The notes under the pieces were generated by a model, which made no database searches, had not been told where the DNA came from, and saw only the letters and a list, made by a program, of their open reading frames with translations. A program made the position numbers and the translations under genes. 64,000 nt of DNA from Fidelibacterota bacterium (GTDB taxonomy: Bacteria; Fidelibacterota; UBA2242): NCBI GenBank assembly GCA_016783665.1, contig JADHWC010000001.1:10596-74595 (forward strand), read 5' to 3'. Each line of letters begins with the position of its first letter. Position 1 is the stretch's first letter. Of this stretch, positions 6,773 to 20,281 are shown one piece after another.

Positions 6773-7912
6773 TTACCGAAAAAGACTTAAATACTCATCA
6801 AAGGTATAGATACGGTTGCGTTTACCACCAGTAACTTCACGCAAAATCCCCAGGTTGATAAAATCATCAATCAACCCATTTGCAGTTATTGGCGTCACTC
6901 CCAACACTTCAGCAACTTCAGAACCTGTTACTGAAGGCTTGGTATATAAATAACTCAGTAACTGTTTTGCCCTGGGAACTTTCCTCTCCAGCCGAAGAAT
7001 TGTCTGTCCCTCAAGCCTCTCTTTAAGTGCGAGGACACTCTGCAGGGTCTGAATTCCTGTCTTGGCAGTTTCGGTAACTGCAGCCAGGAAGAATTTAATC
7101 CAATGAATCATTCGATTGGATTCTGTCACAAATCGCAGATTATCATAATACAGACTCCGATGTTTCTCAAAATAGGATGATAAGTAAAGAACCGGTTTAG
7201 CCAGGATTCCCTCGCCGATCAGATAAAGTGGAATTAACAGGCGCCCAATCCTGCCATTTCCATCTAAAAACGGATGGATCGTTTCAAATTGGTAATGAGC
7301 AATAGCGATTCGGATCATATTTGGGACCGCGATATTGTCATTATGTAAAAAGTATTCCAGATCTGTGATTAAATCCGGAACAGATGTATGAACCGGTGGA
7401 ACAAATATAGCATCCGTTGGCGTAGCGCCACCAATCCAGTTCTGGCTTTTACGAAATTCACCCGGATGTTTGTTTTTACCACGAACACCAGACATTAGCA
7501 CTCGGTGAGTATCCCGAATCAATCTGGACGATAACGGCAGTTTCGCCAACCTATCTACAGCATAATTCAGCGCATTGATGTAATTATTAACCTCCTGCCA
7601 ATCATCCCGCTTTGCCGGTTGGATGTCTTTCTCATCCATGATAGCTTCATCTATATCGGTTCGTGTGCCTTCAATACGGCTGGAGCTGGTCGCTTCTTTG
7701 ACCACGTGCATCCGGATAAAGATATTGACATCCGGTACATAGAGCGAAAATGCATTCAATTCCCCTAATTTGAATACCGCCTGCTCCAACAGAGTATCAA
7801 TAGTAGGTTCAGACCATGACCATTCATGGTTTATCCCGGCTGGCTGAAAACTCCGATAGCCAGTCTGCTGCTGGTAAGTTCCTGCATTGAAATCTTTAAT
7901 GTTCATTGTCAC
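6773..7912 (-). CDS. fic: Fic family protein (AMPylase-type) with internal inhibitory helix and C-terminal wHTH
   Basis: Canonical Fic motif HPFLDGNGRIGRLL. Upstream (S/T)xxxE(G/N) inhibitory motif SSRIEG. C-terminal region resembles a winged helix. Confidence 0.85.
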   Translation of the reverse strand: MTMNIKDFNAGTYQQQTGYRSFQPAGINHEWSWSEPTIDTLLEQAVFKLGELNAFSLYVPDVNIFIRMHVVKEATSSSRIEGTRTDIDEAIMDEKDIQPAKRDDWQEVNNYINALNYAVDRLAKLPLSSRLIRDTHRVLMSGVRGKNKHPGEFRKSQNWIGGATPTDAIFVPPVHTSVPDLITDLEYFLHNDNIAVPNMIRIAIAHYQFETIHPFLDGNGRIGRLLIPLYLIGEGILAKPVLYLSSYFEKHRSLYYDNLRFVTESNRMIHWIKFFLAAVTETAKTGIQTLQSVLALKERLEGQTILRLERKVPRAKQLLSYLYTKPSVTGSEVAEVLGVTPITANGLIDDFINLGILREVTGGKRNRIYTFDEYLSLFR

Positions 7913-7937
7913 CTCAGACTATAATGAGATCTATCGC

Positions 7938-8023
7938 TATTATAGTATAGCGACAAATACTATAATAAGCAATGTGTATTTATAGTATGCGTGGCAATAT
8001 TATAGCAGGGTGAATTATTATAG
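7938..8023. promoter_or_regulatory. Array of five TATTATAG-core motifs at ~20 bp periodicity (one inverted), including palindrome CGCTAT-N6-ATAGCG
   Basis: Copies lie at 7938-7945, 7960-7967 (inverted), 7977-7985, 7997-8005 and 8016-8023, in the 201-nt spacer between the hsdM stop and the fic start. Reading on the minus strand, this is upstream of fic. Confidence 0.35.
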
Positions 8024-8113
8024 CCCGTTGCTAAAACAAGTTTATCGACGGAAGAAATTCAGAGATGGGTGACACCTGTGAAAAATAGCGGGTTGGCAGA
8101 GAAATTACTTAGT

Positions 8114-9559
8114 TTACAGTTCCTCCACAATCCCCCGAAACTGCTCTAACGCCGCTTCGAGGTTATCCGCTATCTCAGCCGCCAGAATATCTGGATCGGG
8201 CAGGTTTTCCATATCTTCCAGACTTTCATCTTTCAGCCAGAAGATATCCAGACTGACTTTATCTCGCTGAATCAGTCCTTCATAGGTGAAAGATTTGAAT
8301 CTCTCGGTTTCGGTACGGGCATGACGGTTTTTGGGGTTGTAGCATTTAACGAAGTCATCCAGATCGGATTTGGTCAGTGGATTTGTCTTCAGTGTGAAGT
8401 GTTTATTCGTTCGTAAATCGTAAATCCACAGCTTCTCGGTCCATGCTTTTTCACTGGCGGGTCTACGGTCGAAGAAGATCACATTCGCCTTGACGCCCTG
8501 GGCATAGAAAACACCTGTTGGCAGCCGAAGTAGTGTATGAATATCGTAATCGCTGAGCAGTTTGCGGCGAACCGTTTCACCGGCGCCACCTTCGAATAAC
8601 ACATTATCCGGTACCACAACAGCGGCACGACCATTGATCTTCAGTAATGATTTAATATGCTGGACAAAGTTCAGCTGCTTATTGGATGTAGTAGCCCAGA
8701 AGTCCTGGCGTTCGTAGGTAATTGATTCCCGTATCGCTTTGCCGTCGCCATTCACAATAGTAATACTGCTTTTCTTGCCGAATGGTGGATTGGTAAGGAC
8801 CATATCGTAACGTTCAGTACCGACCGATTCCAATGAATCCTTAACAGCAATAGGGCTTTCATCACCACCGATCCCGTGCAAATACAGATTCATGACACAA
8901 AGACGAGCGACCGAATCGGCAATTTCGATACCATAGAGCGCTTCATGACGTAGGTGTCGTTTCTGGTCTTTATCCAGTTTGTGATGATGAGAAATATAGT
9001 CATGGGCGGAAATTAAAAAGCCACCGGTACCACAAGCCGGGTCCATAATCGTTATTCCCGGCTCAGGATGCATAACCTTAACAATTGCATTGATCAATGA
9101 ACGTGGGGTAAAGTACTGACCGGCGCCACTCTTAACATCCTCAGCGTTTTTCTGTAATAATCCTTCGTAGGTTTCGCTTTTTACATCAACATCTAATCCA
9201 AGCCAGGTTTCCTCATCAATTAACCTGATTAATCGTCTTAGTTTTGCAGGATCTTGTATTTTATTTTGTGATTTGCGGAAGATAACACCGATAATACTTG
9301 GTTCCTTCCCTAGTTTTTCTAATAGGTGTCGGTAGTGGATTTCCAGTTCATCGCCGTCTTTATTCCGCAGGCTTTCCCAGTTGCATTCCGAGGGTACCCT
9401 GGATTTACGATTAAAGGGTGGCTTCGTCTGTTCGTCATCCATTTTCAGGAACATGAGATAAGTTAGTTGCTCGACATAATCACCATAACTGACACCATCA
9501 TCACGGAGCACATTGCAATAATTCCAGAGTTTTGATACTAAGGCTGCTGCATCGGTCAT
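8114..9559 (-). CDS. hsdM: Type I restriction-modification system methyltransferase subunit HsdM (N6-adenine MTase)
   Basis: 481 aa. AdoMet motif I IMDPACGTGGFL. Catalytic motif IV NPPFG (TNPPFGKK). N-terminus typical of HsdM (MTDAAALVSKLWNYCNVLRDDG). Confidence 0.9.
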   Translation of the reverse strand: MTDAAALVSKLWNYCNVLRDDGVSYGDYVEQLTYLMFLKMDDEQTKPPFNRKSRVPSECNWESLRNKDGDELEIHYRHLLEKLGKEPSIIGVIFRKSQNKIQDPAKLRRLIRLIDEETWLGLDVDVKSETYEGLLQKNAEDVKSGAGQYFTPRSLINAIVKVMHPEPGITIMDPACGTGGFLISAHDYISHHHKLDKDQKRHLRHEALYGIEIADSVARLCVMNLYLHGIGGDESPIAVKDSLESVGTERYDMVLTNPPFGKKSSITIVNGDGKAIRESITYERQDFWATTSNKQLNFVQHIKSLLKINGRAAVVVPDNVLFEGGAGETVRRKLLSDYDIHTLLRLPTGVFYAQGVKANVIFFDRRPASEKAWTEKLWIYDLRTNKHFTLKTNPLTKSDLDDFVKCYNPKNRHARTETERFKSFTYEGLIQRDKVSLDIFWLKDESLEDMENLPDPDILAAEIADNLEAALEQFRGIVEEL

Positions 9560-9561
9560 AT

Positions 9562-10368
9562 TTAATGTATTCCTATTTTGGAATTCATCACTGAAAAGAG
9601 ATTCTTATTCAGATAATCAAAGGTCTGTTTTATATCATAATCAATACCCTGACGTATCAAACCAGCAGTATCACTCCGGAAATCCGGATCTGAAATCTTA
9701 TCATGAACATTGTCAATATATTCTTCTTTTTGGATTGTTAATTCATTATGGCTAATAAATGCATCGAAAGCGTGTAATATGTTTTTCACATTGATGCTCT
9801 GATAATTCAGGCTATACCAGAGATCAAAAAGATCACGTCCCTTTTTTCGCTGAAATAATGCCCTCATTTTCGAGCCCAGTAGTTCTTCAATCGAATATGT
9901 AACCAGATTTCCCTGCCCGGTAAACCAGCGGGATTCAACTTTATAAGGCAGTGACTGGTAGCCAAATACTGTAAAATGCTCACGGCAATTGATTTCGATT
10001 TTTAAACGTAGTTGTTCTGTTGGAGGCGTTTCCGATTCAAAGCGATAGATCAGAGTAGTATTCCGCTTTTTTCGCTTACGAATCGGTTCACCGAGGTAAT
10101 GGAGCACTTCCCGAAACCGATCGATGGTCTCACCCACCGGTTCGGCGTTCATCTGAACCAGGTCAATATCTTCAGAATAGCGGGCTGCCGGTGGTAGAAA
10201 AAGCTTGTGTAAAGCAGTGCCGCCGCGAAAAGCTACTTTCTGACAGAGAATAGGGTCATTAAAAATATCAATTACCGCTCGGCTTATGATCAGGTCCTGC
10301 TCGATCATCTCTGGAGATCGCCACGGTGCGATACTGCGCCATGCATCTATAAAAGGCCGGGGAATCAT
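9562..10368 (-). CDS. abiEii: AbiEii/AbiGii-family nucleotidyltransferase toxin (DUF1814, type IV TA / abortive infection)
   Basis: 268 aa. Family hallmark FRGGTALHKLFLP...RYSEDIDLV. The ORF overlaps the upstream abiEi-like gene by 4 nt (ATGA), consistent with translational coupling. Confidence 0.7.
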   Translation of the reverse strand: MIPRPFIDAWRSIAPWRSPEMIEQDLIISRAVIDIFNDPILCQKVAFRGGTALHKLFLPPAARYSEDIDLVQMNAEPVGETIDRFREVLHYLGEPIRKRKKRNTTLIYRFESETPPTEQLRLKIEINCREHFTVFGYQSLPYKVESRWFTGQGNLVTYSIEELLGSKMRALFQRKKGRDLFDLWYSLNYQSINVKNILHAFDAFISHNELTIQKEEYIDNVHDKISDPDFRSDTAGLIRQGIDYDIKQTFDYLNKNLFSVMNSKIGIH

Positions 10369-11174
10369 AAATCCGTCTCAATTTGAGTATTCACGTTGAT
10401 CTTCCATCGGTTTCTGGATTTGCTGGAAGTTCCTTTCTTAGCGGTATGTAATAGATTATGACGTTTGATTTTGCTTTTTACAACTTCATACAATCTGTCT
10501 GCCAAAGACTGAAATTCCAATTCATATTCCATAAGATAACCGAGTCTTTGTATTACGGCAATCGGAATACTGTCGTCAATTACTTCATGGAACTTTGCCG
10601 GGTCTAAGACTTCACACAGTTCCTGGAGCATAGTTGCCACCCGGTTCATTCCACCAATGCGATTGACATAAAGTAACAGATCAATGGCAGTTAATTCCGG
10701 TGACGAGACATTGACATAACCGGTGAGGGTCTTTTTCTGGGCCAGACCAGCCGCAGGTATTTTCGATTTCACCATAAAGTTGATCTTGACTCCAGCTGCA
10801 AGTAATGGGCGCTGAACCGGTCTGACGGTAATTACATAGGATTCCTGGGGCCGCTGATGAGCTGCGCCATGCATTGCCGCCGCGCTTAAAAGCCCGACAT
10901 AATAGGGTTTCTCCAAATGATGCATTAAATCATCAATAAACTGGATGGCTGGAAGCACACCATGAGCGGAATATTCCGGCGGGATTATGATATAAAACCC
11001 TTTGTAAACCGAACGGGTGCGCCCCTTTTTCCGGAGTCGTTGCAATCCAATCTTAATGGCATTCTCTGACACCTTAAAATACGATTTCACCTCTGCTAAT
11101 GTAAAGGTATATCGTCCCTTAGACCGCAATTGGTCTATATATTTATCCAGATAATTATAACTTAAGTGTTCCAT
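10365..11174 (-). CDS. abiEi: AbiEi-family antitoxin / transcriptional regulator (N-terminal wHTH)
   Basis: 269 aa, immediately upstream of and overlapping the AbiEii gene. Basic wHTH-like N-terminus (FTLAEVKSYFKVSENAIKIGLQRLRKKGR). Length and position typical of AbiEi. Confidence 0.55.
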   Translation of the reverse strand: MEHLSYNYLDKYIDQLRSKGRYTFTLAEVKSYFKVSENAIKIGLQRLRKKGRTRSVYKGFYIIIPPEYSAHGVLPAIQFIDDLMHHLEKPYYVGLLSAAAMHGAAHQRPQESYVITVRPVQRPLLAAGVKINFMVKSKIPAAGLAQKKTLTGYVNVSSPELTAIDLLLYVNRIGGMNRVATMLQELCEVLDPAKFHEVIDDSIPIAVIQRLGYLMEYELEFQSLADRLYEVVKSKIKRHNLLHTAKKGTSSKSRNRWKINVNTQIETDL

Positions 11175-11427
11175 TTATCACCATATAACGTTTCGTTTGC
11201 GTAAAGTATCACTTTGTGACTATTATTGCAAATGAAATGTCATGTATCACAGAGAATAACAATTAAATTCACGATAACATACTCCATGTTAACGTGCGTT
11301 ACAAGTGTTAATATAAAGTGTTTTTATGCAATAGTTATCACGGAACGATAATTCCTGCAATAAATTACTCACGGAATCCATAGCCATTTATAACGCCTCG
11401 TTTGCAATACCTATAACATTGTGACCA

Positions 11428-11532
11428 TTAACGCAAACTGGACGGGACGGTTGCTTTAATGTTATATCTCTCGTCACGGAGCACGTTGCAATAGTTCCAG
11501 AGTTTCGATACTAATGTTGCTGCGTCGGTCAT
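11428..11532 (-). pseudogene. Remnant of an hsdM 5' end (first 20 codons) fused to unrelated sequence
   Basis: Nucleotides 11473-11532 are ~90% identical to 9500-9559, the true hsdM start. They would translate MTDAATLVSKLWNYCNVLRD versus MTDAAALVSKLWNYCNVLRD, followed by divergence and a stop after 34 codons. The ATG overlaps the KAP NTPase stop as ATGA. Confidence 0.6.
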
Positions 11533-13772
11533 TTAACATTTTCCTTGTTATTTTTATTTTCATCAGGATTAGTTATAGATTCTTTCTCTTTCAACATTGC
11601 TTTATAAAATGCCGCAAACTGAAAGGCGACTTTTTTATTATCATCAATATCTTGTGCTCCATAAAGCCAAGCCTTTTCAGCCTTGTCGAGTTTGTCTCCA
11701 TATATGGATTTCAGCTGTGTAAATAAAACTTGTGGATCGATTAATTTAATTATTTTATCGAATGTCTCTCTTCGAAAACTTACCTTGCCAGTCGTTCTAT
11801 TATTTAAATCATCAATAGTCGTAAGAAAAATCGATAAAAATATGACTACATTGTAATGATCCTTACTAAACGTTGAATGTAAATAGCGGGTAAGTTCTTC
11901 TTTGTCGCCCCAATTGTACCAGTACCAAATTAGTTCTTCTGCTTCTTTTCCATATTCAATATAAAATATTTTCGAACCAGAGATAGTTATTATTCTTGAT
12001 AACAATAGTGCATTTAACTCTTTTATCTGCTTATCTGACAACAAGGATTTATCCGGTTTACTTTTATCATCATTCGTGAGCTCATAAAAGCACTTAAGAG
12101 AATATGTTACAGGTTCACTTTTTTCTATAATATCTATAATGGTCGAATAAAATGCATCTTCGGTTTTAGCATTTAATAATAAATCGTGAATTAATGATGA
12201 TGCTAAATATTGTGGTGAGCGTAAAAAAGCAGATTCGCTTGAAGTTGGTAAAAGATCACCAATCTCTGACAGTGCTTTTGATAATTTCAATGAATTGTTG
12301 TTTTGCACCTTATCTTTATACGGCATGAGTTTAAAAAGTACTTTATTAACATTCTTTTTATCTACTATGAAACGTAGTTCTTTGACAATATCTTCTACTT
12401 CTAATTTAGGAATACTTGTTATAAAATTCTCTATAGTAGTATCTGATACATCATCTTTAGGAACAGAGTAACTAAAGTATCTCTGAAAATAATCTTTGGA
12501 TGCGATCCGTTTTTCCTTATACCATTCTTCACTCGCTGGATTTGAAATATCCATCTCTGAAAGAATGCTAGGTATTTGCGGAAATAGAAATGTGATTAAT
12601 GATTTGGCAGATGCATTTTCAATCTCATTGTATGATATTAATGCTTCATCAATTGTATTTTGAGCATTCTTCCTTAATTCTTGTGTTGATTCTAAAAATC
12701 CTCGCGTTCCAAGAAATAAGTTCGAATTATTCCTAATAGAATCATATAATTGAGGATAGAATACACGAATTGCTTCAATTAACAATAAATCTACAAGGTT
12801 CACTTCCCCCTTTAACACAGTAGCAGCAAAACGAATCACGTTTGCATATCTTTTACATAAACGGGGGGTAGTAATTCTCACAGAAAGATCATTTATAACA
12901 ATCTGCCAATAGGGCTGTAACATTTGTCGATTAAATGTAACATTTGAATCATATAAAGCATTATTCACTTCTAATTCAAAGAATTCTAATAGAGTAAACC
13001 TTGGAATTTGAGGCGCTTTAATAGGTATTTGTACAATCTTTTCTAAAAAACTATAACCAGCTTTTATATCGTCCTTATTATTACCGTATTTCTCTGTTAG
13101 TGCTGAAGCGACCATTCTATCATCAAATGCAAGAATATATATTAAATTATCGAATCCTGCTGTTAATTTAACTAACTTAAAAACTGCATGTATCTCATCC
13201 TTGTCGAGCCTGTCAATGTCATCCATAAAAATTACTACGCACTTCTTATTATCTCTAAGGATCCCTTCAAACTTCGTCTTTAAAGTGTCTGGATTATTGC
13301 CAGACATCATCCTACCAACCTTAGTAAGTGTTCCTCCAACGGGAATCGATACACCTGGCCCACTTATATCTAAAGGTAAAATGACTTCCGCGTATTTCTC
13401 AAGAATTTCACCAATCTTTTCTTTCCCCCCTAATTTAATATTTAATGTTTCCCTTAATACTGAGAAGAACATCATAATGAGTTGTTTGTCATCTTCAAAT
13501 CTCCAAGGATTGAATTTTATTGGAATAATAAATTCAGTCTCATTCAATGCGTATTCAATTAAATTTAGTATAGATGTTTTACCATCACCCCATGGTCCTA
13601 ATATACTTATGACCATATTACTGGTATCTTTTCTATTAATTATTGTTTGTGCTATCTTCTGTGCAAATGGCCAGCGATTGAATTTATCTTGTTTTGGGGT
13701 TTGAATTGGTAAATCGGATACATATTCAATTGGTTGAGTTATATTATCATCTTCCATAGAGTTAACCTGCAT
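11529..13772 (-). CDS. KAP-family P-loop NTPase
   Basis: 747 aa. Walker A ILGPWGDGKTS. Walker B hhhhDDIDR (VVIFMDDIDRL). Long helical C-terminal region typical of KAP NTPases. Markedly lower GC than the flanking hsdM and hsdR. Confidence 0.8.
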   Translation of the reverse strand: MQVNSMEDDNITQPIEYVSDLPIQTPKQDKFNRWPFAQKIAQTIINRKDTSNMVISILGPWGDGKTSILNLIEYALNETEFIIPIKFNPWRFEDDKQLIMMFFSVLRETLNIKLGGKEKIGEILEKYAEVILPLDISGPGVSIPVGGTLTKVGRMMSGNNPDTLKTKFEGILRDNKKCVVIFMDDIDRLDKDEIHAVFKLVKLTAGFDNLIYILAFDDRMVASALTEKYGNNKDDIKAGYSFLEKIVQIPIKAPQIPRFTLLEFFELEVNNALYDSNVTFNRQMLQPYWQIVINDLSVRITTPRLCKRYANVIRFAATVLKGEVNLVDLLLIEAIRVFYPQLYDSIRNNSNLFLGTRGFLESTQELRKNAQNTIDEALISYNEIENASAKSLITFLFPQIPSILSEMDISNPASEEWYKEKRIASKDYFQRYFSYSVPKDDVSDTTIENFITSIPKLEVEDIVKELRFIVDKKNVNKVLFKLMPYKDKVQNNNSLKLSKALSEIGDLLPTSSESAFLRSPQYLASSLIHDLLLNAKTEDAFYSTIIDIIEKSEPVTYSLKCFYELTNDDKSKPDKSLLSDKQIKELNALLLSRIITISGSKIFYIEYGKEAEELIWYWYNWGDKEELTRYLHSTFSKDHYNVVIFLSIFLTTIDDLNNRTTGKVSFRRETFDKIIKLIDPQVLFTQLKSIYGDKLDKAEKAWLYGAQDIDDNKKVAFQFAAFYKAMLKEKESITNPDENKNNKENVK

Positions 13773-15501
13773 TTAATTTGTTTATATGTTTTTTCCTCTC
13801 CAGCAACTCACTGGCAGGTTCACCTGCCTGCCGCGTCCGTCCGGCGGCTATCTCTCGCTTTAACCATTTGCGCCCAAAGCCGGTCTTTAAATCCTTTTCT
13901 CGTTTAACTGCTGCTTCACGTGTATTGAATTCTTCCCAATGAACAAGTTTAACCGGTGGATAATGTTTAGTCCAATCAGCACCTTTTCCTTGTATATGTT
14001 CTATCCAACGCTTCTCAATATCATTGGTCTGTCCGATATAGTGACTACCATTGGAACATTCGAATACATAAACGAACAAGCGATCAGGCCGCGGCGCAGG
14101 CAGGTCATTTGGATCCTGCGGCACCAACTTCCCCTCAAAGGCCCGCTTCAGGATAGACTGACGCAGGGATTGGGAACGCTTGAGTTCAGCGTAGATGATT
14201 TGTTCCGATTCATCAATTATTGAAAATAGTCTGTCTAATTCTTTAAGTATTACGTTTTGTTCATCAATTGGCAATAACGGTACAGGAATAGATTTTAGAT
14301 CCTTTACTCCTTTCACGTTAGGAATTGCTGAACCAGTGGAATTTGCAAATATTCTATTTTGGAAATACGGTGATCTAAATAATTGGATAAAAAAAGAATC
14401 ATTATATATATTTCTATTTATTCGTACTCTTAATAGAGCTTGATTTATTATTCCTTCTTGAAAATCATTAGGAATTTGAGTTATTCTACCCAAAGACACA
14501 CCAGAACAACTTATTAAAAAGTCACCTGCTCTTACAGCAAATGCTTTCATTTCTTGATATTTCATTTCATCAATGAAATAACGAGTAAAAGAACAATCAT
14601 CGTTTATTGGACAATATTGTTCATATACTTTATAGCCAGATTTTACAAACATTGATTTCTTTAAAGAGCTACCGAATGGTCCTCTTTTAAATGCTCCTTC
14701 ATCATTTGATAAAATATCTTCCCAAGTAGCCCACACCCACCCCTCAGGCAATTCCGGCAGATTGGAAGTATCAATTGGCTTGGGCGGCTTGTACTTCTTG
14801 CCCAGGCGCTGTTTGCGCTCTGCCTGAATCCGTTCCAGGAGTGCGGATGCCGGCTCAATCTGGTTTGCGTTTTCCCGTCTCCATTCTTCCGTGAGTTTGC
14901 CTTCCACAGCGGCCTTGAGAACTGATTGACGGTACTGCTTCAACAGGGCTTTGGCTCTCTGCAGGGCGTCAATACCGGCGTCAAATTTGGTGAAGAGTTC
15001 CTCGATCTTAGCAACGATGCGCTGCTGTTCGGGGAAGGGGGAAAGGGGAATTTCGAAATTGCCGAGTTCCCTTGTACTGATATTAGGTTGTGCAGCACCA
15101 TATGCATTTTTCAGAATGTCTCTTCTAATAATTGCTAAATAATGGTAAATATAGTCTTGAGTCACATATTTTTGATCTAATACTCGTAACCGACCAACAC
15201 GTTGATTGAGTAAGGATACCCTGTCAATTCGATATTTACCATATTTACCAGTTGTTGCACCTGAAAGAGCAATAACAATGTCATTTGGTTTTAATATAAA
15301 TTCTGGATAGGAATCAACATTTGTCTCATCCAAGTACACTGTTTTTTCATCGAAACTTACACACTCATTTTCTATGTTTGAGATTCGAAGCAATGGAATA
15401 CCAGATGATTTATAGTCCTTACTTTTAAAAGCATAACCACCACGAATTTCGCATATTTGATCAAAAGGTATTTGAGTCCAGTTGTTAGGTAATCTACTCA
15501 T
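13762..15501 (-). CDS. hsdS: Type I R-M specificity subunit HsdS with C-terminal YhbQ-like GIY-YIG nuclease domain (fusion)
   Basis: 579 aa. Two target-recognition domains separated by the conserved central helix (LFTKFDAGIDALQRAKALLKQYRQSVLKAAVEGKLT) and a distal conserved helix (LDRLFSIIDESEQIIYAELKRSQSLRQSILKRAFEGKLV). Residues ~474-545 (nt ~13867-14082) read FVYVFECSNGSHYIGQTNDIEKRWIEHIQGKGADWTKHYPPVKLVHWEEFNTREAAVKREKDLK, a GIY-YIG/URI domain of the YhbQ (COG2827) type. Confidence 0.85.
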   Translation of the reverse strand: MSRLPNNWTQIPFDQICEIRGGYAFKSKDYKSSGIPLLRISNIENECVSFDEKTVYLDETNVDSYPEFILKPNDIVIALSGATTGKYGKYRIDRVSLLNQRVGRLRVLDQKYVTQDYIYHYLAIIRRDILKNAYGAAQPNISTRELGNFEIPLSPFPEQQRIVAKIEELFTKFDAGIDALQRAKALLKQYRQSVLKAAVEGKLTEEWRRENANQIEPASALLERIQAERKQRLGKKYKPPKPIDTSNLPELPEGWVWATWEDILSNDEGAFKRGPFGSSLKKSMFVKSGYKVYEQYCPINDDCSFTRYFIDEMKYQEMKAFAVRAGDFLISCSGVSLGRITQIPNDFQEGIINQALLRVRINRNIYNDSFFIQLFRSPYFQNRIFANSTGSAIPNVKGVKDLKSIPVPLLPIDEQNVILKELDRLFSIIDESEQIIYAELKRSQSLRQSILKRAFEGKLVPQDPNDLPAPRPDRLFVYVFECSNGSHYIGQTNDIEKRWIEHIQGKGADWTKHYPPVKLVHWEEFNTREAAVKREKDLKTGFGRKWLKREIAAGRTRQAGEPASELLERKKHINKLNAG

Positions 15502-15520
15502 GCTGTCAGCGCCTCATTCA

Positions 15521-16669
15521 TCAGGCACAATTCCGTATTTCTTCCAGGTAGTTCTCAGCATAGTATTGATCCGGTATTGATTGTGAAACTATATCTTTTA
15601 GTCTGTTTAAGTAACTGGGAGACAAAAGATCATTATGCTGGAGGATACCAACGATGATCCCCGGATGGAGATGCAAATACTCAGCAGTATCATATATCAA
15701 TCTCTGCTGAATATAGCCAGTCTTCAATTCAAAGATGTCTATTATTGCCTTTGATTTTAGTAATTCAGATGCGAACTCGTTGGCTTCCTGTTCTGTCGTG
15801 CCTGCCTGGTTTCTCTCTTCCACGTTATCAATAAAGAAATCCTCCGCGGTATTCAGATGTCGCAGGACATGGGCGATTTCATGAGCAATTGTGAACCAAA
15901 AGTTGTCGTTACGATCATAGCGTTTAGTATATACGATGACAGGGTTTTCGCCGTCGAGAAATGAAGCGCCATCGGTATAGGTTTTTTGCAGATGACTGAG
16001 GACAAAGAATTTGACGCCGCATTGTTCAAGAGCACCGGTAAATGCCGCGATTCCATCATCCCGAACCGTATATGTGTGAATTTGTGAAGCCAGCAGTTTC
16101 AGGGCAGGTTTATCGTATTCCGACGATTCATATATTTTGGCGCTGCGCTGTGCCATTCGATACCAACATAGTGCATAATTGTTGTTAAAACGGCCATATG
16201 CTGAGGATTTACGAAATTGAGGTAAAAGTTTGTCATTGAAGAAATCAAAGGACAAATCCTGTGTATTCCAGAATCGCTGAACCTCTTTTACGAATTGTTC
16301 AAGATTGCTTCGTGCGCAAATCCAGTCCTTTTTAACCATCTCCTGAATCGGCATATACTTATAAATGTTGGCTTTCAGTTCAACCATAGCTTCTTTTTGC
16401 GATTCTTCTTGTAATTGGAGTCTGTACATCGAATCCAGATTCAGCCAGTACTGCGGAGATTGTCCAAAGGTTTTACTAAGCAGACGAGCGGTTTCCGGGG
16501 TAATGGATTGTTTGTTTTTAATAATCATGTTAATAGATTTGATATTCATGCCCAGAATATCAGCCAAATCTTCCTGGCGCCAACCCCGTTCATCTAACTC
16601 TTCCCGGATGAATTCGCCGGGACCAATGTTAATAAAAGGTTGCAGAGTATTGACCATTTTAATCACCAT
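15521..16669 (-). CDS. higA: HigA-like antitoxin: XRE-family HTH fused to ImmA/IrrE (COG2856) zinc metallopeptidase domain
   Basis: 382 aa. N-terminal HTH (EDLADILGMNIKSINMIIKNKQSITPETARLLSKTFG). HEXXH motif FTIAHEIAHVLRH plus downstream EQEANEFASELL, typical of ImmA/IrrE. Overlaps the upstream small toxin-like ORF by 11 nt. Confidence 0.75.
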   Translation of the reverse strand: MVIKMVNTLQPFINIGPGEFIREELDERGWRQEDLADILGMNIKSINMIIKNKQSITPETARLLSKTFGQSPQYWLNLDSMYRLQLQEESQKEAMVELKANIYKYMPIQEMVKKDWICARSNLEQFVKEVQRFWNTQDLSFDFFNDKLLPQFRKSSAYGRFNNNYALCWYRMAQRSAKIYESSEYDKPALKLLASQIHTYTVRDDGIAAFTGALEQCGVKFFVLSHLQKTYTDGASFLDGENPVIVYTKRYDRNDNFWFTIAHEIAHVLRHLNTAEDFFIDNVEERNQAGTTEQEANEFASELLKSKAIIDIFELKTGYIQQRLIYDTAEYLHLHPGIIVGILQHNDLLSPSYLNRLKDIVSQSIPDQYYAENYLEEIRNCA

Positions 16670-16970
16670 AATGCTTGGATATTTCTAATAGCGTTACTTT
16701 TTTGAAGATTTTATCTTTTACTTCCCATTCAACATCAAATTCGAGCCGCCACTGTTTATTAAGTCTGACCGAATAGCGGTTTTTAAATCCTTCGAGACGT
16801 TCAAAGTGCAGGGATTTTGAATTCCAAAGATCGTAAATTGTGTCAGAAGCCTCAAGCGACCTAACGCGCATCAAGAACTTTCTCTTGATTTCTTCTGTTA
16901 GTCTTGGCCTACGACATTTTCTTGATGTGTATAAATTTAATAGGTTTTTGTTCCCAAATTCGATATTCAA
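16659..16970 (-). CDS. higB: HigB/RelE-superfamily toxin-like protein (killer protein)
   Basis: 103 aa. C-terminal pattern LEGFKNRYSVRLNKQWRLEFDVEW...KVTLLEISKHY resembles HigB (…GxxxGxWSxRxNxxWRxxF…DYH). Directly upstream of the HTH-ImmA gene in the toxin-first order typical of higBA. Confidence 0.6.
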   Translation of the reverse strand: MNIEFGNKNLLNLYTSRKCRRPRLTEEIKRKFLMRVRSLEASDTIYDLWNSKSLHFERLEGFKNRYSVRLNKQWRLEFDVEWEVKDKIFKKVTLLEISKHYGD

Positions 16971-17017
16971 AAAGTACCTATAGTATATACGTTATTCGTA
17001 ACATTCGCAAGTTAATT

Positions 17018-17034
17018 ATTACGCCATACGTAAT
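17018..17034. promoter_or_regulatory. Inverted repeat ATTACG-N5-CGTAAT upstream of higB-like gene (candidate operator)
   Basis: Perfect 6-bp inverted repeat arms in the 79-nt gap between the hsdR stop and the higB-like start. A second small TACG-N5-CGTA repeat lies at 16988-17000. Confidence 0.25.
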
Positions 17035-17049
17035 ATTGTTAATCAGTAT

Positions 17050-19812
17050 TTAAGAAGTCAACACCCTGTTTAATTCATCTAAAATAGTGCTGAACTGTTC
17101 TCCAAATACTTGATACGCTTTCATCAAGCCGCCGCGATCATAAAAGGGCACGTTGTCAAAGTCATCTACTTCGATCTCCACGCTGGTGGCAATGTGGTCT
17201 TTGATCATCTTCAGCCATTCCAGCTGTTCCGGGCTGAAGTCGTTGCCTGCTTTACGCTGATTTTCCAGCCAGTTCTCAAAGCGCTGATCGATACTCTGAT
17301 AGAAGGGCGTCAACTGCTCCTCTTTACCCAAACCGTAGCGAATCAATGAAATCAGATCGGTGAGCAGTTTATCCGGTCCCCGCCGCCGTACCCGGTCCTT
17401 ATCCAGCTGCTCAAATGCAAACCAGACCCGGTCGGTATTCAAGTTGTAGGGCGGGTTCTCCATCCGTTTTGCCAGTTCTTTGATCATCTCGTAAGTCAGA
17501 TGACGTTTATCATAAGGTTGATTGTAGATGATCTGAAGCGCCGTGATCTCATCCTGATTGGCTTGCATGAATTCCCGGAAGGATTTGATGAGGACATTAG
17601 CCTTCTTTTTAGCATCACTGTCATAGCCGGCGGATACAACATTATCTATACTGACAGTATCAATGGTTTGTTCATTGCGCTGCTTTAGTTCAATGAGTTT
17701 ATTCCTGAACTTCGGATCGTCAAATACTTCGCAGGCATCCCTGGTAAGTTCGTCCGCAGCCTGTTTTATCTGTTCCCCGGAAGGTGAATCTGTCTGAAAT
17801 AGCGTTTTTGCTTTTTCTGTTTGAATATCAGGATCCACGGCATCCAGTAATTGATTGCTTATAGCGGTTAATAATTTACCGCCGGAAACGTCTTCCAATT
17901 CCTTTTGCTGCTCTTTATCTAATTGCAGGTTCAGGCGTGACAGGCGTCCGGCAAGCGATTTAATTGTATCTTCATCCCGTGCGCCAAAGGCGATCTGCTG
18001 GATCAGTTTATTAAATGGAACTGTGCGTTTGCGCTCCAGCGGTTTGGAATCAATTTTCACCGATTCCGTAACACCAACTGCATCTACTACAATAAAATGG
18101 GTTTTATCACGAGTATCCGGAGTTACTGCCACAAGGTCGGTACTGGAAATGACTCTTGTACCGCGCCCGATCATCTGTTCAAAGTACAGCCTGGATTTGA
18201 TATTCCGCATGAATAGCAGACATTCCAGGGGTTTAATATCCGTTCCGGTGGAGATCATATCCACAGTTACGGCAATACGAGGATTATAGGAGTTCCGGAA
18301 ACTGGCAATCAGGTTTTCCGGCGTGTCGCCAGTGGTCTTGTAAGTGATCTTCTTGCAGAAGTCATTACCTTTATCGAATTCCTGCCGGGTTATCTGAACG
18401 ATATTCTCGGCGTGAGCATCATCTTTAGCAAAGATGAGGGTCTTGGGAACTTCCGTTCTGCCGGGGAATATCTCAGTGTACAGTTTATCACGGAAAGTGC
18501 GGATGACCGTACGTATCTGATCGACAGAGACTACTTCCCGGTCTAATTGCTTTTCGGTATAGACAATGTCCTCATCCAGTTGTTCCCAGCGCTTTTCCCG
18601 TGTGTACCGGTCTTGCTTCGCAACCCAGAAACCGGCGTCGATTTTACTGCCCTGCTCTGTAATCTGAGTTTGAATACGATATACTTCAAAACCGACATTC
18701 ACCCGGTCGGCAACCGCCCGCTCATGGTTATATTCCATGACCAGGTTTTTATTGAAGAATCCAAAAGTCTGCTTGGAGGGTGTAGCCGTCAATCCAATGA
18801 TAAAAGCATCAAAATATTCCAGCACCTGTCGCCATTGGTTATAAATCGACCGGTGACATTCATCAGTGATGATGAAATCAAAGGTTTCTATCGGGATTTG
18901 CGGATTGTAAACGACTTCTTTTGGTGGAATAGTTTCGTCAGTAACATCGTACAGGGAAAGTTCTTCCAAGTCGTCTTCAATGGGTTCGCCTCTGAGCATA
19001 CTGTAAAGGCGCTGAATTGTTGTAATACAGACTTTATTGACCGGATCAATTACGTTAGATGAAAGCAACTGAACATTATATAATTCAGTGAATTTCCGTC
19101 CGTCGTCAGGAGTGATATATTGAGCAAACTCACCGCGAGTCTGGCGTCCCAGAGTTTTACGATCCACCAGAAAAAGGATGCGTTTCGCCCTGGCAAATTT
19201 GATCAGGCGATAGACAAACGATACCGCTGTAAAGGTCTTACCACTGCCGGTAGCCATCTGGATTAGTGCCCGTGGACGCGCATTCCGGAAAGAGTGGTCA
19301 AGGTTAGCTATCGCTTCCACCTGGCATTGACGGAGTCTGTTGGTCAGTAGCGGTGGTAATTGCCGTAAGCGCTTCCTGAGTGTGACAGACTCATTCAGAT
19401 ACTCCTGAAGCGTTTCCGGTCGGTGAAAATTGAATACGCGCCGGGATCGTGGACTGGGATCACGTTCATCGGTAAAATATGTCTCAATACCCGTACTTTC
19501 ATAAGTGAATGGTAACGGTGATTGAACATGTGGTATTTTGTCCGGGAAGTTGTGACCGTATTTTATCGATTGCTCATGAACGCCACTGAGTGTGGTGCCT
19601 TCCGGCTTGGCTTCAACAACACCGGCACCTTGACGGTCTATGAATAATACATAATCAGCAGGACCGGCATTAGTCGGGAACTCCCGAACGGCAACGCCTA
19701 ACCCGACACCGAGATTAATAGCTTTAACGTCCTGTATAATCCATCCTGATTGAGTTAACAGTTGATCGATATGTTGGCGCGCCAGTTCTTCAGGCGTCAT
19801 TTTTGGTTGCAC
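17050..19812 (-). CDS. hsdR: Type I restriction enzyme R subunit HsdR (SF2 helicase/translocase + nuclease)
   Basis: 920 aa. Walker A MATGSGKTFTAV. DEAH box ITDECHRS. HsdR-type N-terminal domain and C-terminal helical domain. Confidence 0.9.
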   Translation of the reverse strand: MQPKMTPEELARQHIDQLLTQSGWIIQDVKAINLGVGLGVAVREFPTNAGPADYVLFIDRQGAGVVEAKPEGTTLSGVHEQSIKYGHNFPDKIPHVQSPLPFTYESTGIETYFTDERDPSPRSRRVFNFHRPETLQEYLNESVTLRKRLRQLPPLLTNRLRQCQVEAIANLDHSFRNARPRALIQMATGSGKTFTAVSFVYRLIKFARAKRILFLVDRKTLGRQTRGEFAQYITPDDGRKFTELYNVQLLSSNVIDPVNKVCITTIQRLYSMLRGEPIEDDLEELSLYDVTDETIPPKEVVYNPQIPIETFDFIITDECHRSIYNQWRQVLEYFDAFIIGLTATPSKQTFGFFNKNLVMEYNHERAVADRVNVGFEVYRIQTQITEQGSKIDAGFWVAKQDRYTREKRWEQLDEDIVYTEKQLDREVVSVDQIRTVIRTFRDKLYTEIFPGRTEVPKTLIFAKDDAHAENIVQITRQEFDKGNDFCKKITYKTTGDTPENLIASFRNSYNPRIAVTVDMISTGTDIKPLECLLFMRNIKSRLYFEQMIGRGTRVISSTDLVAVTPDTRDKTHFIVVDAVGVTESVKIDSKPLERKRTVPFNKLIQQIAFGARDEDTIKSLAGRLSRLNLQLDKEQQKELEDVSGGKLLTAISNQLLDAVDPDIQTEKAKTLFQTDSPSGEQIKQAADELTRDACEVFDDPKFRNKLIELKQRNEQTIDTVSIDNVVSAGYDSDAKKKANVLIKSFREFMQANQDEITALQIIYNQPYDKRHLTYEMIKELAKRMENPPYNLNTDRVWFAFEQLDKDRVRRRGPDKLLTDLISLIRYGLGKEEQLTPFYQSIDQRFENWLENQRKAGNDFSPEQLEWLKMIKDHIATSVEIEVDDFDNVPFYDRGGLMKAYQVFGEQFSTILDELNRVLTS

Positions 19813-19920
19813 TTTCGAGTTAGATTAATCATGTTCGTATCAATCGTTGCATTTTAATTAATGCAGTGGATATATGCAACTGAAAACAGTTATTCAGATA
19901 TTGCTTTTAAAAGCCATTCG

Positions 19921-19940
19921 CTGAACAGTGCCCTGTTCAG
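19921..19940. promoter_or_regulatory. Perfect palindrome CTGAACAG-TGCC-CTGTTCAG ~110 nt upstream of hsdR start
   Basis: 8-bp arms with a 4-nt spacer, visible directly. Contains a GAAC-N8-GTTC core. Candidate operator in the hsdR promoter region. Confidence 0.3.
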
Positions 19941-20257: not shown

Positions 20258-20281
20258 ATATTTGGTTTGTTAACGGGTGAG

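What the first reader, a model, noticed from the sequence alone, without database searches (positions are those of the whole stretch)
8114..19812. Type I R-M operon used as a scaffold for embedded defence modules (HigBA-like, KAP NTPase, AbiEi/AbiEii)
A single minus-strand gene array reads hsdR - higB-like - HTH/ImmA antitoxin - hsdS(GIY-YIG) - KAP NTPase - abiEi - abiEii - hsdM. Junctions are tight or overlapping (11-nt, 11-nt and 4-nt overlaps, and an ATGA overlap), so these are probably co-transcribed. A toxin-antitoxin pair, an abortive-infection pair and a KAP NTPase sit inside one restriction system. This looks like an integrated multi-layer anti-phage island. The KAP NTPase position between hsdS and hsdM is not a classical arrangement. 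It may mark a functional partnership, for example an NTPase sensing restriction failure.
Basis: partly seen in the sequence, partly recalled or inferred. Interest (0 to 1): 0.6.

Follow-up and report, generated by a model that had tools for sequence, protein, structure and literature searches.

The report
Defence genes nested in restriction operon
A type I restriction-modification operon of an uncultured Marinimicrobia bacterium has collected three separate anti-phage cassettes between its own genes, which is a known kind of 'defence islet'; the unexpected part is a 282-base nuclease-coding mobile insert sitting in-frame inside its specificity gene.

Summary
The minus-strand array is real, and profile searches support every domain call. 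The order is hsdR, higB-like, HigA-HTH/M78 peptidase, hsdS, PifA-like KAP NTPase, abiEi, abiEii, hsdM. A SoFic gene follows, outside the given range.

The junctions are less uniform than stated: KAP-abiEi is 354 nt and hsdR-higB is 79 nt.

In 80 relatives of this hsdM, the normal operon is a compact hsdR-hsdS-hsdM. The S-M junction carries extra genes in 25 of 63 loci and the R-S junction in 8 of 42, and the cargo is varied TA and defence genes. Embedding in type I R-M is already published ('guilt-by-embedding'), so this is a new instance of a known kind.

The proposed KAP-restriction partnership is not supported. Among 80 KAP relatives, only 2 sit inside hsd operons.

Two observations go beyond the finding:
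- Copies of the hsdM 5' end (window 11470-11532; three copies in relative L001) mark cassette stacking by recombination between hsd operons.
- The 'GIY-YIG fusion' is a precise 282-nt in-frame insertion. Its ends are conserved and base-paired. The same module sits inside many unrelated proteins (HsdS, HsdR, Ogt, MsrB and others). I found no description of such an element family.

The parts
17050..19812 (-). hsdR, the type I restriction subunit (EcoAI/EcoEI-like); first gene of the operon
   Evidence: Pfam ResIII 2e-37, EcoEI_R_C 2.5e-40, HSDR_N. PADLOC REase_I 7e-54. NCBIfam matches EcoAI-type and PRK11448 models, both below their cut-offs.
16659..16970 (-). higB-like gene (RelE-fold toxin family), 103 aa from a TTG start; first gene of the cassette in the hsdR-hsdS junction
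   Evidence: PF05015 8.9e-9, covering residues 4-80 of the 103-aa form. No PADLOC PD-Lambda-2_A match even at E<=10. The gene pair is syntenic in L092 and L096.
15521..16669 (-). HigA-type HTH fused to an ImmA/IrrE M78 peptidase (PD-lambda-2 B-like)
   Evidence: HTH_3 8e-11, Peptidase_M78 1.6e-10. PADLOC PD-Lambda-2_B 9.5e-45. TIGR02607 HigA 51.9 bits against a cut-off of 47.7.
13762..15501 (-). hsdS specificity subunit with two target-recognition domains, interrupted near its 3' end by the GIY-YIG element
   Evidence: Methylase_S 5.7e-28, two stretches. PADLOC Specificity_I 6e-104. Tail alignment with the L001 and L092 HsdS.
13822..14104 (-). 282-nt in-frame GIY-YIG (Slx1/UPF0213-type) insertion element with base-paired termini (5' CCTGCCTGCGCCGCGGCC ... 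GGACGCGGCAGGCAGG 3'). The exact ends are ambiguous by 1 nt.
   Evidence: Absent from the hsdS of L001 and L092. Twelve independent copies are all 282 nt. Terminal stem 97.9% paired with 3 compensatory pairs. Arms have pS 0.23 against 0.85 in the interior. The module is found inside many unrelated proteins.
11529..13757 (-). PifA-like KAP-family P-loop NTPase (742 aa from the conserved Met; the ORF extends to 13772); low G+C cargo
   Evidence: KAP_NTPase 1.9e-44. PADLOC PifA 2.8e-78 over 6-700 of 720 profile positions. GC 0.317 against 0.41-0.46 for the neighbours. 24-25% identity to IncF-plasmid P-loop proteins over aa 20-440. Relatives are mostly stand-alone.
11470..11532 (-). Remnant of the hsdM 5' end (21 codons, MTDAATLVSKLWNYCNVLRDE). 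Its ATG overlaps the KAP stop (ATGA). It is a scar of an earlier KAP-hsdM junction.
   Evidence: 54 of 62 nt identical to the real hsdM start at 9559. 96.8% identical to the hsdM start of L001. L001 has such copies after KAP, after abiEii and at hsdM itself.
11175..11469 (-). Upstream region of the abiE cassette: a probable promoter/operator with two GTGATAC-containing direct repeats. About 140 nt of it travels with abiE in other loci.
   Evidence: Direct repeats at 11201-11212 and 11239-11250. Promoter-like hexamers at 11250-11222 and 11181-11154, though such sites are not above chance across the region. Conserved with L091 and L092 upstream of abiEi.
10365..11174 (-). abiEi (antitoxin/autorepressor of the AbiE type IV TA / abortive-infection pair)
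   Evidence: AbiEi_1 2e-30, AbiEi_4 4e-5. PADLOC AbiEi 2.5e-95.
9562..10368 (-). abiEii (nucleotidyltransferase toxin); shares a 4-nt ATGA overlap with abiEi
   Evidence: AbiEii 1.3e-32. PADLOC AbiEii 4e-103. Junction.
8114..9559 (-). hsdM, the type I methyltransferase subunit; last core gene of the operon
   Evidence: N6_Mtase 3.6e-68, HsdM_N 5e-15. PADLOC MTase_I 4e-197.
6773..7912 (-). SoFic-like Fic AMPylase with a C-terminal wHTH, 201 nt downstream of hsdM (outside the given range). It is preceded by repeated CTATAAT/ATTATAG motifs.
   Evidence: Fic_N and Fic. PADLOC SoFic 1.1e-113. NCBIfam SoFic below cut-off. Repeats at 7915-8023.

Best explanation
**What it is.** This is a type I R-M operon of an EcoAI/EcoEI-like family. 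Its native layout is a compact, overlapping hsdR-hsdS-hsdM. Its two internal junctions act as recombination hot-spots where self-contained defence or TA cassettes accumulate.

**What it has collected.**
- A HigB-like / HigA-HTH-M78 pair in the hsdR-hsdS junction.
- A PifA-like KAP NTPase and then an AbiEi/AbiEii pair in the hsdS-hsdM junction.
- A SoFic gene follows hsdM.
- A 282-nt GIY-YIG mobile element has inserted in-frame into the tail of hsdS.

**How it works.** The modules are inferred to act independently. R-M cuts unmethylated incoming DNA. AbiE, the PifA-like NTPase, the HigB/M78 pair and SoFic are abortive-infection or toxin-type back-ups. Embedding gives co-inheritance and probably read-through co-expression.

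**How it was built (inferred).** Assembly was stepwise, by recombination between different hsd operons through the conserved hsdM 5' end. KAP once abutted hsdM directly with an ATGA overlap. Later an abiE-hsdM segment from another operon was joined in at hsdM codon 21, leaving a 21-codon hsdM stub.
For: **Shown:**
- All domain assignments hold.
- Among 80 loci with 68-85% identical HsdM, the usual layout is hsdR(-4)hsdS(-11/-4/-1)hsdM. Inserts longer than 300 nt occur in 25 of 63 S-M junctions and 8 of 42 R-S junctions.
- The cargo there is diverse and rich in defence and TA genes: MNT/HEPN, AbiE, HTH-M78, HepT, PIN, Schlafen/AlbA_2, PtuA-like ATPases, HamA+UvrD, RhuM and IS200.
- L092 has the same layout without KAP or GIY-YIG. 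L001 has KAP+abiE plus an extra DrmD-like helicase cassette and no hsdR.
- hsdM 5' stubs follow each cassette in the window and in L001. The stubs break off at different points, 62 nt and 75 nt.
- KAP has a foreign G+C of 0.317.
- KAP relatives are stand-alone in most genomes.
- There are no terminator-like sites at gene ends on the coding strand.
- The locus is reproduced in independent assemblies.

**From the literature:**
- Embedding in type I R-M is frequent, and 96.7% of embedded genes are co-oriented (10.1101/2024.01.29.577857).
- TgvAB and DarTG2 are tested examples.

**Inferred:** independence of the modules, co-transcription, and the order of insertion events.
Against: - No expression, methylation or phage data exist for this uncultured organism.
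- The promoter and terminator scans are uninformative for this lineage.
- hsdM stubs were found in only 4 of 82 loci, so most insertions leave no scar and the recombination route may not be general.
- PD-lambda-2 needs a third gene for defence, and that gene is absent here. The HigB/M78 pair may therefore be a plain TA or a regulator rather than a defence system.
- The GIY-YIG insertion could impair HsdS.
Confidence: 0.8

Rival explanations
1. Integrated system. The KAP NTPase, and perhaps AbiE, is a functional partner of the type I enzyme. For example, it might sense failed restriction or stalled HsdR translocation and then trigger abortive infection.
For: - The genes are co-oriented and tightly spaced with hsdS.
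- KAP sits within an hsd operon in a second family, L011.
- The embedded TgvAB system protected better within the whole T1RM cluster than alone.
Against: - Only 2 of 80 KAP loci are embedded and 6 of 80 lie near a type I system.
- Neighbours of KAP relatives are heterogeneous.
- None of the other 80 hsdM-family loci has KAP.
- L092 has the same operon without KAP.
- KAP's G+C is foreign.
- The full-length match is to PifA, a stand-alone exclusion protein.
Confidence: 0.07
2. Decaying scaffold. The R-M system has been inactivated by the insertions (hsdS interrupted by GIY-YIG, hsdM 5' end rearranged). The locus is then only a graveyard or landing pad for mobile cassettes.
For: - An hsdM remnant is present.
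- A mobile element sits inside hsdS.
- L001 lacks hsdR and has a half-size hsdS.
- L173 shows a fragmented hsdM next to an element-bearing hsdS fragment and an IS21.
Against: - hsdR, hsdS and hsdM are full-length ORFs that match their profiles end to end.
- The GIY-YIG insert is in-frame, in the flexible tail after the conserved AFEGKL helix.
- A complete hsdM follows abiEii with a 2-nt spacer.
- The identical locus persists in several samples.
Confidence: 0.1
3. Assembly or binning chimera. The cassettes come from different genomes and were joined through the repeated hsdM 5' sequence.
For: - The window has two copies of the hsdM 5' end, 87% identical.
- Some contigs carrying this hsdM begin 22 nt upstream of it (L085, L087, L088).
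Against: - The full array was assembled identically in ENA and Logan assemblies of different samples (L081, L082, L083).
- The KAP-stub-abiE junction is conserved in the independent genome L001.
- The longest exact match between the two copies is too short to mislead an assembler.
Confidence: 0.03

Closest known systems
Defence genes embedded in type I R-M operons ('guilt-by-embedding', Payne et al. 2024, bioRxiv 10.1101/2024.01.29.577857)
   Same: Known and candidate defence genes are nested between hsd core genes in the same orientation. Several cassettes can occupy one host system.
   Different: - That survey's main text does not name AbiE, PifA/KAP, PD-lambda-2 or SoFic as examples.
- Here both junctions are occupied, with three cassettes, a flanking SoFic and recombination scars (hsdM stubs).
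TgvAB in the Vibrio cholerae VPI-2 type I R-M cluster (PMC11411939) and DarTG2 in the EPEC RptR-R-M island (PMC12255303); PrrC in EcoprrI (mentioned)
   Same: A self-sufficient second defence system sits between hsdS and hsdR or hsdM, and acts independently of restriction.
   Different: - The cargo differs.
- The core order differs: R-S-M here.
- Nothing has been tested experimentally here.
- No RptR-like regulator was identified.
PD-lambda-2 of E. coli (Vassallo et al. 2022, PMC9519451)
   Same: A HigB-like gene is followed by an Xre-HTH fused to an M78 peptidase. The B component matches the PADLOC model at 9.5e-45.
   Different: - The third component, which PD-lambda-2 needs for defence, is absent.
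- The A component does not match the PADLOC A model.
PifA of the F plasmid (phage T7 exclusion)
   Same: The match to the PADLOC PifA profile runs the full length, with an N-terminal KAP-type P-loop domain. The size is similar (742 aa).
   Different: - Only 24-25% identity to IncF-plasmid homologues, and only over the N-terminal 56%.
- Chromosomal and embedded in an hsd operon.
- Trigger and effector are unknown.
Slx1-like GIY-YIG domain inserted in HsdR MCA0838 of Methylococcus capsulatus (Dunin-Horkawicz et al. 2006, PMC1564403)
   Same: A GIY-YIG domain of the Slx1/UPF0213 type is inserted inside a type I R-M subunit and is absent from a close homologue.
   Different: - That paper reported a single case and judged it a recent insertion.
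- Here the insert is a fixed 282-nt unit with conserved base-paired termini.
- It occurs in hundreds of protein clusters and about twenty unrelated host families.
Inteins, homing-endonuclease introns and Rickettsia palindromic elements (own knowledge)
   Same: - In-frame insertion into conserved sites of host genes, as for inteins.
- A nuclease of a homing-endonuclease family.
- Palindromic ends and translation as part of the host protein, as for Rickettsia palindromic elements.
   Different: - No intein junction residues: the insert starts with Leu and is followed by Gly, Glu or Lys.
- No ribozyme match in Rfam.
- Unlike Rickettsia palindromic elements, it encodes a conserved enzyme domain.

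Membership tests
Type I restriction-modification system | HsdR with an SF2 helicase/translocase core plus a nuclease N-domain | tested here: met
   ResIII, SWI2_SNF2, Helicase_C, HSDR_N, EcoEI_R_C. PADLOC REase_I.
Type I restriction-modification system | HsdM N6-adenine methyltransferase and HsdS with two target-recognition domains, in one co-oriented cluster | tested here: met
   N6_Mtase 3.6e-68 and HsdM_N. Methylase_S in two stretches. All genes on the minus strand.
Type I restriction-modification system | Bipartite-site methylation and ATP-dependent restriction | not testable with these tools
   Needs a methylome or biochemistry.
Defence systems embedded in type I R-M | Non-hsd genes lying between hsd core genes on the same strand, with the position recurring in related operons | tested here: met
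   25 of 63 S-M junctions and 8 of 42 R-S junctions are occupied in the hsdM family, and the cargo is dominated by defence and TA domains.
AbiE (type IV TA / abortive infection) | AbiEi (wHTH plus AbiEi_1 domain) followed by the AbiEii nucleotidyltransferase in an overlapping bicistron | tested here: met
   Pfam and PADLOC matches at 2.5e-95 and 4e-103. 4-nt ATGA overlap.
AbiE (type IV TA / abortive infection) | Toxicity neutralised by AbiEi; phage abortive phenotype | not testable with these tools
   An experiment is required.
PD-lambda-2 | Component B: Xre-HTH fused to an M78 peptidase | tested here: met
   PADLOC PD-Lambda-2_B 9.5e-45 over 57-376 of 402 profile positions.
PD-lambda-2 | Component A: HigB-like protein matching the family model | tested here: inconclusive
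   Pfam HigB-like_toxin 8.9e-9, but no PADLOC hit at E<=10.
PD-lambda-2 | Component C (P4-antitoxin-like), required for defence | tested here: not met
   Only 19 nt separate the HTH-M78 gene from hsdS, so there is no third gene. The requirement is stated in PMC9519451.
HigBA type II toxin-antitoxin | HigB toxin encoded upstream of a HigA HTH antitoxin | tested here: met
   PF05015. TIGR02607 HigA above its cut-off. Toxin-first order with an 11-nt overlap or a 1-nt spacer.
HigBA type II toxin-antitoxin | Antitoxin is a small stand-alone HTH protein | tested here: not met
   382 aa, with a C-terminal M78 peptidase domain.
PifA (KAP NTPase phage exclusion) | Full-length similarity to PifA, including the KAP P-loop domain | tested here: met
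   PADLOC PifA 2.8e-78, residues 18-691 against profile positions 6-700 of 720. KAP_NTPase.
PifA (KAP NTPase phage exclusion) | Exclusion of phage triggered by specific phage proteins | not testable with these tools
   An experiment is required. Direct identity to plasmid homologues is only 24-25%.
SoFic | Fic_N plus Fic domain protein matching the SoFic model | tested here: met
   PADLOC SoFic 1.1e-113. NCBIfam equivalog scores 166 bits, below its cut-off of 550.
Intein (considered for the GIY-YIG insert) | Cys/Ser at the first residue, His-Asn at the end, Cys/Ser/Thr as the first downstream residue | tested here: not met
   Inserts begin with LPAPRP and end with RQAG. They are followed mostly by E (28), G (25), Y (7), D (6) or K (6), and by T in only 3 of 83 cases.
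Self-splicing intron with a homing endonuclease (considered for the GIY-YIG insert) | Ribozyme core; the ORF need not be in frame with the exons | tested here: not met
   No Rfam match in 6500-20900. The insert is 94 codons in 72 of 83 inserts from the protein search and 282 nt in all 12 DNA copies, always in-frame and without stops.
Transposon with terminal inverted repeats (considered for the GIY-YIG insert) | Inverted terminal sequences conserved at the nucleotide level | tested here: met
   A 16-bp terminal pairing is 97.9% kept, with 3 compensatory pairs. Synonymous differences are 0.23 in the arms against 0.85 in the interior.
Transposon with terminal inverted repeats (considered for the GIY-YIG insert) | Encodes a recognised transposase; target-site duplication | tested here: not met
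   The only coding content is a 94-aa GIY-YIG domain. No duplication is visible at the filled site when compared with the empty site.

The most novel reading that the evidence does not exclude
The 'GIY-YIG fusion' in hsdS is one copy of an undescribed family of minimal mobile elements.

**Features of the unit:**
- It is a fixed 282-nt unit with no start or stop codon of its own.
- It inserts between the second and third base of a host codon, so that it is translated as a 94-residue Slx1/UPF0213-type nuclease domain inside the host protein.
- Its two ends are conserved at the nucleotide level and pair with each other exactly at the insertion boundaries.

**Targets:** the conserved regions of HsdS are its main home (69 of 110 representative hosts). 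It also sits in conserved D|G turns of unrelated proteins, including Ogt, MsrB, pterin dehydratase, TfoX, HsdR, trigger factor and TrmD.

**Possible mechanism (inference only):** the structure-specific nuclease it encodes may recognise the hairpin or junction formed by its own ends, in DNA or RNA, to excise or copy the element.

**Possible consequence:** cutting in the hsdS conserved regions could also drive shuffling of target-recognition domains.
Probability: 0.45. Interest if true: 0.8.

Novelty: new member of a known kind. Interest (0 to 1): 0.5.

Why it matters
**The island.** It adds a well-resolved example to the known rule that type I R-M operons act as landing pads for other defence genes. 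This case involves three cassettes, both junctions and recombination scars. It shows one concrete route for stacking: recombination between hsd operons through the conserved hsdM 5' end. It also removes a tempting but unsupported idea, that the KAP NTPase works with the restriction enzyme.

**The GIY-YIG element.** The larger potential value lies here. If it is confirmed as a mobile, translated-through nuclease cassette with paired ends, it would be a new way for a selfish nuclease gene to persist inside essential and defence genes. It would also be a possible driver of HsdS specificity shuffling. Finally, it would explain many odd 'GIY-YIG fusion' annotations in metagenomic proteins.

Tried and rejected
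- **Terminator and sigma-70 promoter scans.** Counts were not above shuffled controls, and the promoter type of this lineage may differ. They give no evidence for or against a single transcript.
- **Rfam over 6500-20900.** Only one sub-threshold chance hit. No riboswitch, intron or known RNA.
- **tRNA scan.** None found, so there is no tRNA-linked island boundary.
- **Transmembrane check of KAP by hydropathy.** The maximum 19-residue mean is 1.33. There is no convincing membrane helix, unlike tmn-type KAP proteins.
- **PD-Lambda-2_A model against the HigB-like protein at E<=10.** No hit, so I do not file the pair as PD-lambda-2.
- **hsdM 5' stubs as a general signature.** Found in only 4 of 82 loci, so rejected as a universal mechanism.
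- **phmmer 'hsdS' hits next to KAP in L059 and L061.** They are GIY-YIG matches, not HsdS, and were excluded from the R-M count.
- **Search for the 94-aa insert in the plasmid collection.** Only distant stand-alone UPF0213 proteins.
- **Literature searches for an in-frame GIY-YIG element.** Only the single HsdR case from 2006. One search failed on syntax.
- **Intein and intron readings of the insert.** Both rejected; see the membership tests.

Full report
**1. Observation**

ORF listing shows an uninterrupted minus-strand series from 19812 down to 8114, continuing to 6773. Pfam, PADLOC and NCBIfam support each call:
- hsdR: ResIII, EcoEI_R_C; EcoAI-like.
- A 103-aa HigB-like protein.
- A 382-aa protein with a HigA-type HTH (TIGR02607, above cut-off) fused to an M78 ImmA/IrrE peptidase. 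It matches PADLOC PD-Lambda-2_B at 9.5e-45.
- hsdS with two target-recognition domains and a GIY-YIG domain.
- A KAP P-loop NTPase that matches the PADLOC PifA profile end to end (2.8e-78).
- abiEi and abiEii.
- hsdM.
- A SoFic-type Fic protein, just outside the given range.

Junctions:

| Junction | Spacing |
|---|---|
| hsdR to higB | 79 nt |
| higB / HTH-M78 | 11-nt overlap |
| HTH-M78 to hsdS | 19 nt |
| hsdS / KAP | 11-nt overlap as an ORF; more likely a 4-nt spacer |
| KAP to abiEi | 354 nt |
| abiEi / abiEii | ATGA overlap |
| abiEii to hsdM | 2 nt |
| hsdM to SoFic | 201 nt |

The hsdS/KAP spacer is preferred because the Met at ORF position 6 is invariant in 33 homologues and is the annotated start.

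The source is a Candidatus Marinimicrobia MAG. The same arrangement occurs in independent assemblies from different samples. The array is therefore real, but it is not uniformly tight.

**2. The native operon and its hot-spots**

I fetched 80 metagenome loci whose HsdM is 68-85% identical to the window's and located hsd genes in them with phmmer.
- The family layout is hsdR-hsdS-hsdM. hsdR/hsdS usually overlap by 4 nt, and hsdS/hsdM by 1-11 nt.
- The hsdS-hsdM junction holds more than 300 nt of extra DNA in 25 of 63 loci. The hsdR-hsdS junction does so in 8 of 42. Six loci have both occupied.
- The 57 cargo ORFs carry MNT/HEPN, HepT, PIN, AbiEi/AbiEii, HTH+M78, Schlafen AlbA_2/HATPase_c_4, PtuA-like ABC ATPases, HamA with a UvrD helicase, RhuM, ORF6N and IS200 transposase domains.

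This matches what has been published for type I R-M generally:
- Payne et al. describe frequent embedding, with 96.7% of embedded genes co-oriented.
- TgvAB in V. cholerae and DarTG2 in EPEC are tested cases.
- A survey of hsdS invertons lists Fic, RhuM and GIY-YIG genes between core genes.

The 'scaffold' reading is right, but it is not new.

**3. KAP is cargo, not a partner**

The KAP protein has at least 1589 relatives at E<=1e-10 among the 8000 candidates scored. I examined 80 genome loci with 10-kb flanks.
- Only L001, L009, L011, L013, L040 and L069 have two or more type I genes nearby.
- KAP lies between hsd genes only in L001 (68% identical KAP, the same lineage of events) and in L011 (a different, M-first operon).
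- A Pfam scan of 115 immediate neighbours found Methylase_S twice. The commonest neighbours were DHH/DHHA1 phosphoesterases (7) and phage-type integrases (5).
- No other member of the hsdM family has a KAP gene.
- L092 has hsdR-higB-HTH/M78-hsdS-abiEi-abiEii-hsdM without KAP.
- KAP's G+C is 0.317 (GC3 0.249), against 0.41-0.46 for the hsdR, hsdM and abiE genes.
- It has no convincing membrane helix.
- It is 24-25% identical to IncF-plasmid P-loop proteins over residues 20-440.

I therefore read it as a distant, stand-alone PifA-like exclusion gene acquired horizontally.

**4. How the stack was built**

Immediately after KAP, and overlapping its stop by ATGA, lies a 21-codon copy of the hsdM start (window 11470-11532, MTDAATLVSKLWNYCNVLRDE).
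- It is 54/62 nt identical to the real hsdM start at 9559.
- It is 96.8% identical to the hsdM start of L001.

L001 carries hsdS(half)-KAP-stub-abiEi-abiEii-stub-DrmD-like SNF2 helicase-513-aa protein-hsdM. Its stubs are 62 nt and 75 nt long.
- Each cassette is thus followed by an hsdM 5' copy.
- The break points differ, which argues against one site-specific recombinase.
- It argues for repeated joining of 'cassette + hsdM' segments from other hsd operons: homologous on the hsdM side and illegitimate on the other.

Stub-to-stub recombination would delete a cassette. The window equals an L001-like array without the DrmD cassette.

About 140 nt upstream of abiEi travels with the pair in L091 and L092. 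It contains two GTGATAC direct repeats and promoter-like hexamers, so abiE probably brings its own autoregulated promoter.

Stubs were seen in only 4 of 82 loci: the window, L001, L156 and L160. This is therefore one route, not the rule.

**5. Likely functioning**

*Shown:* the gene content and its modular, exchangeable nature.

*Inferred from the families (own knowledge):*
- R-M restricts unmethylated DNA.
- AbiEii is a nucleotidyltransferase toxin held by AbiEi.
- PifA-type proteins abort infection on sensing phage proteins.
- In PD-lambda-2 the HTH-peptidase is the toxic part and the HigB-like protein neutralises it. The third gene needed for defence is missing here, and the A model does not match, so I file the pair only as PD-lambda-2 A/B-like.
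- SoFic is a Fic AMPylase defence.

No coding-strand terminator-like site lies at a gene end. This is compatible with read-through but does not prove it.

**6. The GIY-YIG 'fusion' is a discrete in-frame element**

*Position in HsdS.* HsdS of L001 and L092 end ...AFEGKLVPQDPADEPAS(V/E)LLER.... The window reads ...QDPND[LPAPRPDRLFVY...GRTRQAG]EPASELLER....

*Same module in other proteins.* Its homologues have the same LPAPRP...GR(T/A)RQAG borders and lie inside unrelated proteins.
- In Ogt the sequence is PCHRVIRSD[insert]GxxGxY, so removing the insert restores the active-site motif.
- In MsrB it is GHVFPD[insert]GP.
- Other hosts include pterin dehydratase, TfoX, HsdR and HsdS.

*Scale of the family.* An exhaustive search of 1.8 billion cluster representatives gave 431 clusters at E<=1e-10.
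- All of the top 150 contain essentially the whole module, at varied internal positions in proteins of 100-1101 aa.
- Of 110 scanned, 69 are HsdS. The rest include DUF1156, HsdR, HsdM, type III Mod, trigger factor, TatD, QueC, TrmD, ArgRS and others.
- The insert is 94 aa in 72 of 83 cases.
- The residue before it always has an NNC codon (D 56, G 11, and S, N, H, T, A, R). This fits an element that starts with C at codon position 3.

*Nucleotide-level evidence.* Twelve independent DNA copies are all exactly 282 nt.
- Their termini (5' CCTGCCTGCGCCGCGGCC ... GGACGCGGCAGGCAGG 3') are nearly invariant, although the interiors are only about 60% identical.
- Synonymous differences are 0.23 in the arms and 0.85 in the interior.
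- Interior non-synonymous differences are 0.28, so the protein is under purifying selection.
- The arms pair over 16 bp starting exactly at the boundaries. 97.9% of cells are paired, three pairs show compensatory double changes, 0-1 of 500 shuffles reach the observed values, and slid controls give 28-53%.
- RNAalifold finds the same terminal stem on its own.

*Fold.* AlphaFold of an Ogt+insert protein gives pLDDT 87, with the insert as a separate alpha/beta domain. Foldseek matches the host part to Ogt/AGT structures and the insert to UPF0213 proteins and Slx1.

*What it is not.* It lacks intein junction residues and has no Rfam ribozyme match.

*Prior art.* The only precedent I found is a single Slx1-like GIY-YIG insertion in HsdR MCA0838, noted in 2006. 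Four other literature searches found nothing.

*Mechanism.* This is inference only. A structure-specific nuclease acting on the hairpin formed by its own ends, or plain homing with a tolerated loop insertion, are both open.

**7. Verdict**

The assigned finding is a genuine, well-formed example of a known phenomenon, and its most speculative claim (KAP partnership) is not supported. The hsdM stubs add a small mechanistic insight. The GIY-YIG element is the item most worth following up.

Noticed in passing
window 13822-14104 (-); also L097:9629-9910, L170:3184-3465, L173:4130-4411, L174:2187-2468, L176:1926-2207, L177:530-811, L178:818-1099, L179:277-558, L180:234-515, L181:315-596, L182:133-414: A 282-nt in-frame GIY-YIG element with conserved, base-paired termini is inserted in hsdS and in many unrelated genes. 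Apart from one HsdR case noted in 2006, I found no description of it.
   Followed up: yes
window 11470-11532 (-); L001:12208-12270, 14181-14255, 19003-; L156:7710-7832; L160:1854-2099: Partial copies of the hsdM 5' end lie upstream of the real hsdM, each following an embedded cassette. They look like scars of recombination between hsd operons. They could also mediate cassette loss.
   Followed up: yes
window 7913-8113: The hsdM-SoFic spacer holds four or five copies of a CTATAAT/ATTATAG palindromic motif (25-nt and 21-nt imperfect inverted repeats). This may be an operator for the C-terminal wHTH of SoFic.
   Followed up: no
L085, L087, L088: Three independent contigs carrying the identical hsdM begin exactly 22 nt upstream of its start codon. 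This suggests that the population varies in what lies upstream of hsdM, giving an assembly-graph branch at the hot-spot.
   Followed up: no
L001:14313-18986: In the closest relative, a DrmD-like SNF2 helicase (PADLOC DrmD 4e-265) and a 513-aa protein with no Pfam domain lie between abiEii and hsdM. That locus has no hsdR and only a half-size hsdS, so it resembles a helicase-methylase (Hma/DISARM-like) hybrid.
   Followed up: partly
DHH/DHHA1 genes among the neighbour ORFs of alignment A7 (individual loci not identified): Seven of the 115 immediate-neighbour ORFs of KAP/PifA-like relatives encode a DHH/DHHA1 phosphoesterase. This may be a two-gene KAP+DHH system.
   Followed up: no
L059:12229-13014, L061:12229-13014 (Pseudomonas): In these loci the KAP relative is followed directly by a 261-aa protein with an N-terminal GIY-YIG domain of another subfamily. 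In the window, a GIY-YIG domain lies directly upstream of KAP. This is probably coincidence, but I did not test it.
   Followed up: no
proteins P0170, P0186, P0201, P0215: Some proteins match the GIY-YIG module in two stretches. In P0186 the two copies are directly tandem (…GRTRQAG|LPAPRPGK…). P0170 is an HsdS.
   Followed up: no
L173:2555-8636: An element-bearing hsdS fragment sits after an hsdM broken into three ORFs and next to an IS21-type transposase pair. This is an example of a decaying type I locus that carries the element.
   Followed up: no
window 16659-16970 (-): Automatic gene calls in public assemblies start the higB-like gene at an internal ATG (70 aa). The Pfam alignment needs the 103-aa form, which starts at TTG, so the deposited annotation probably truncates it.
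   Followed up: partly
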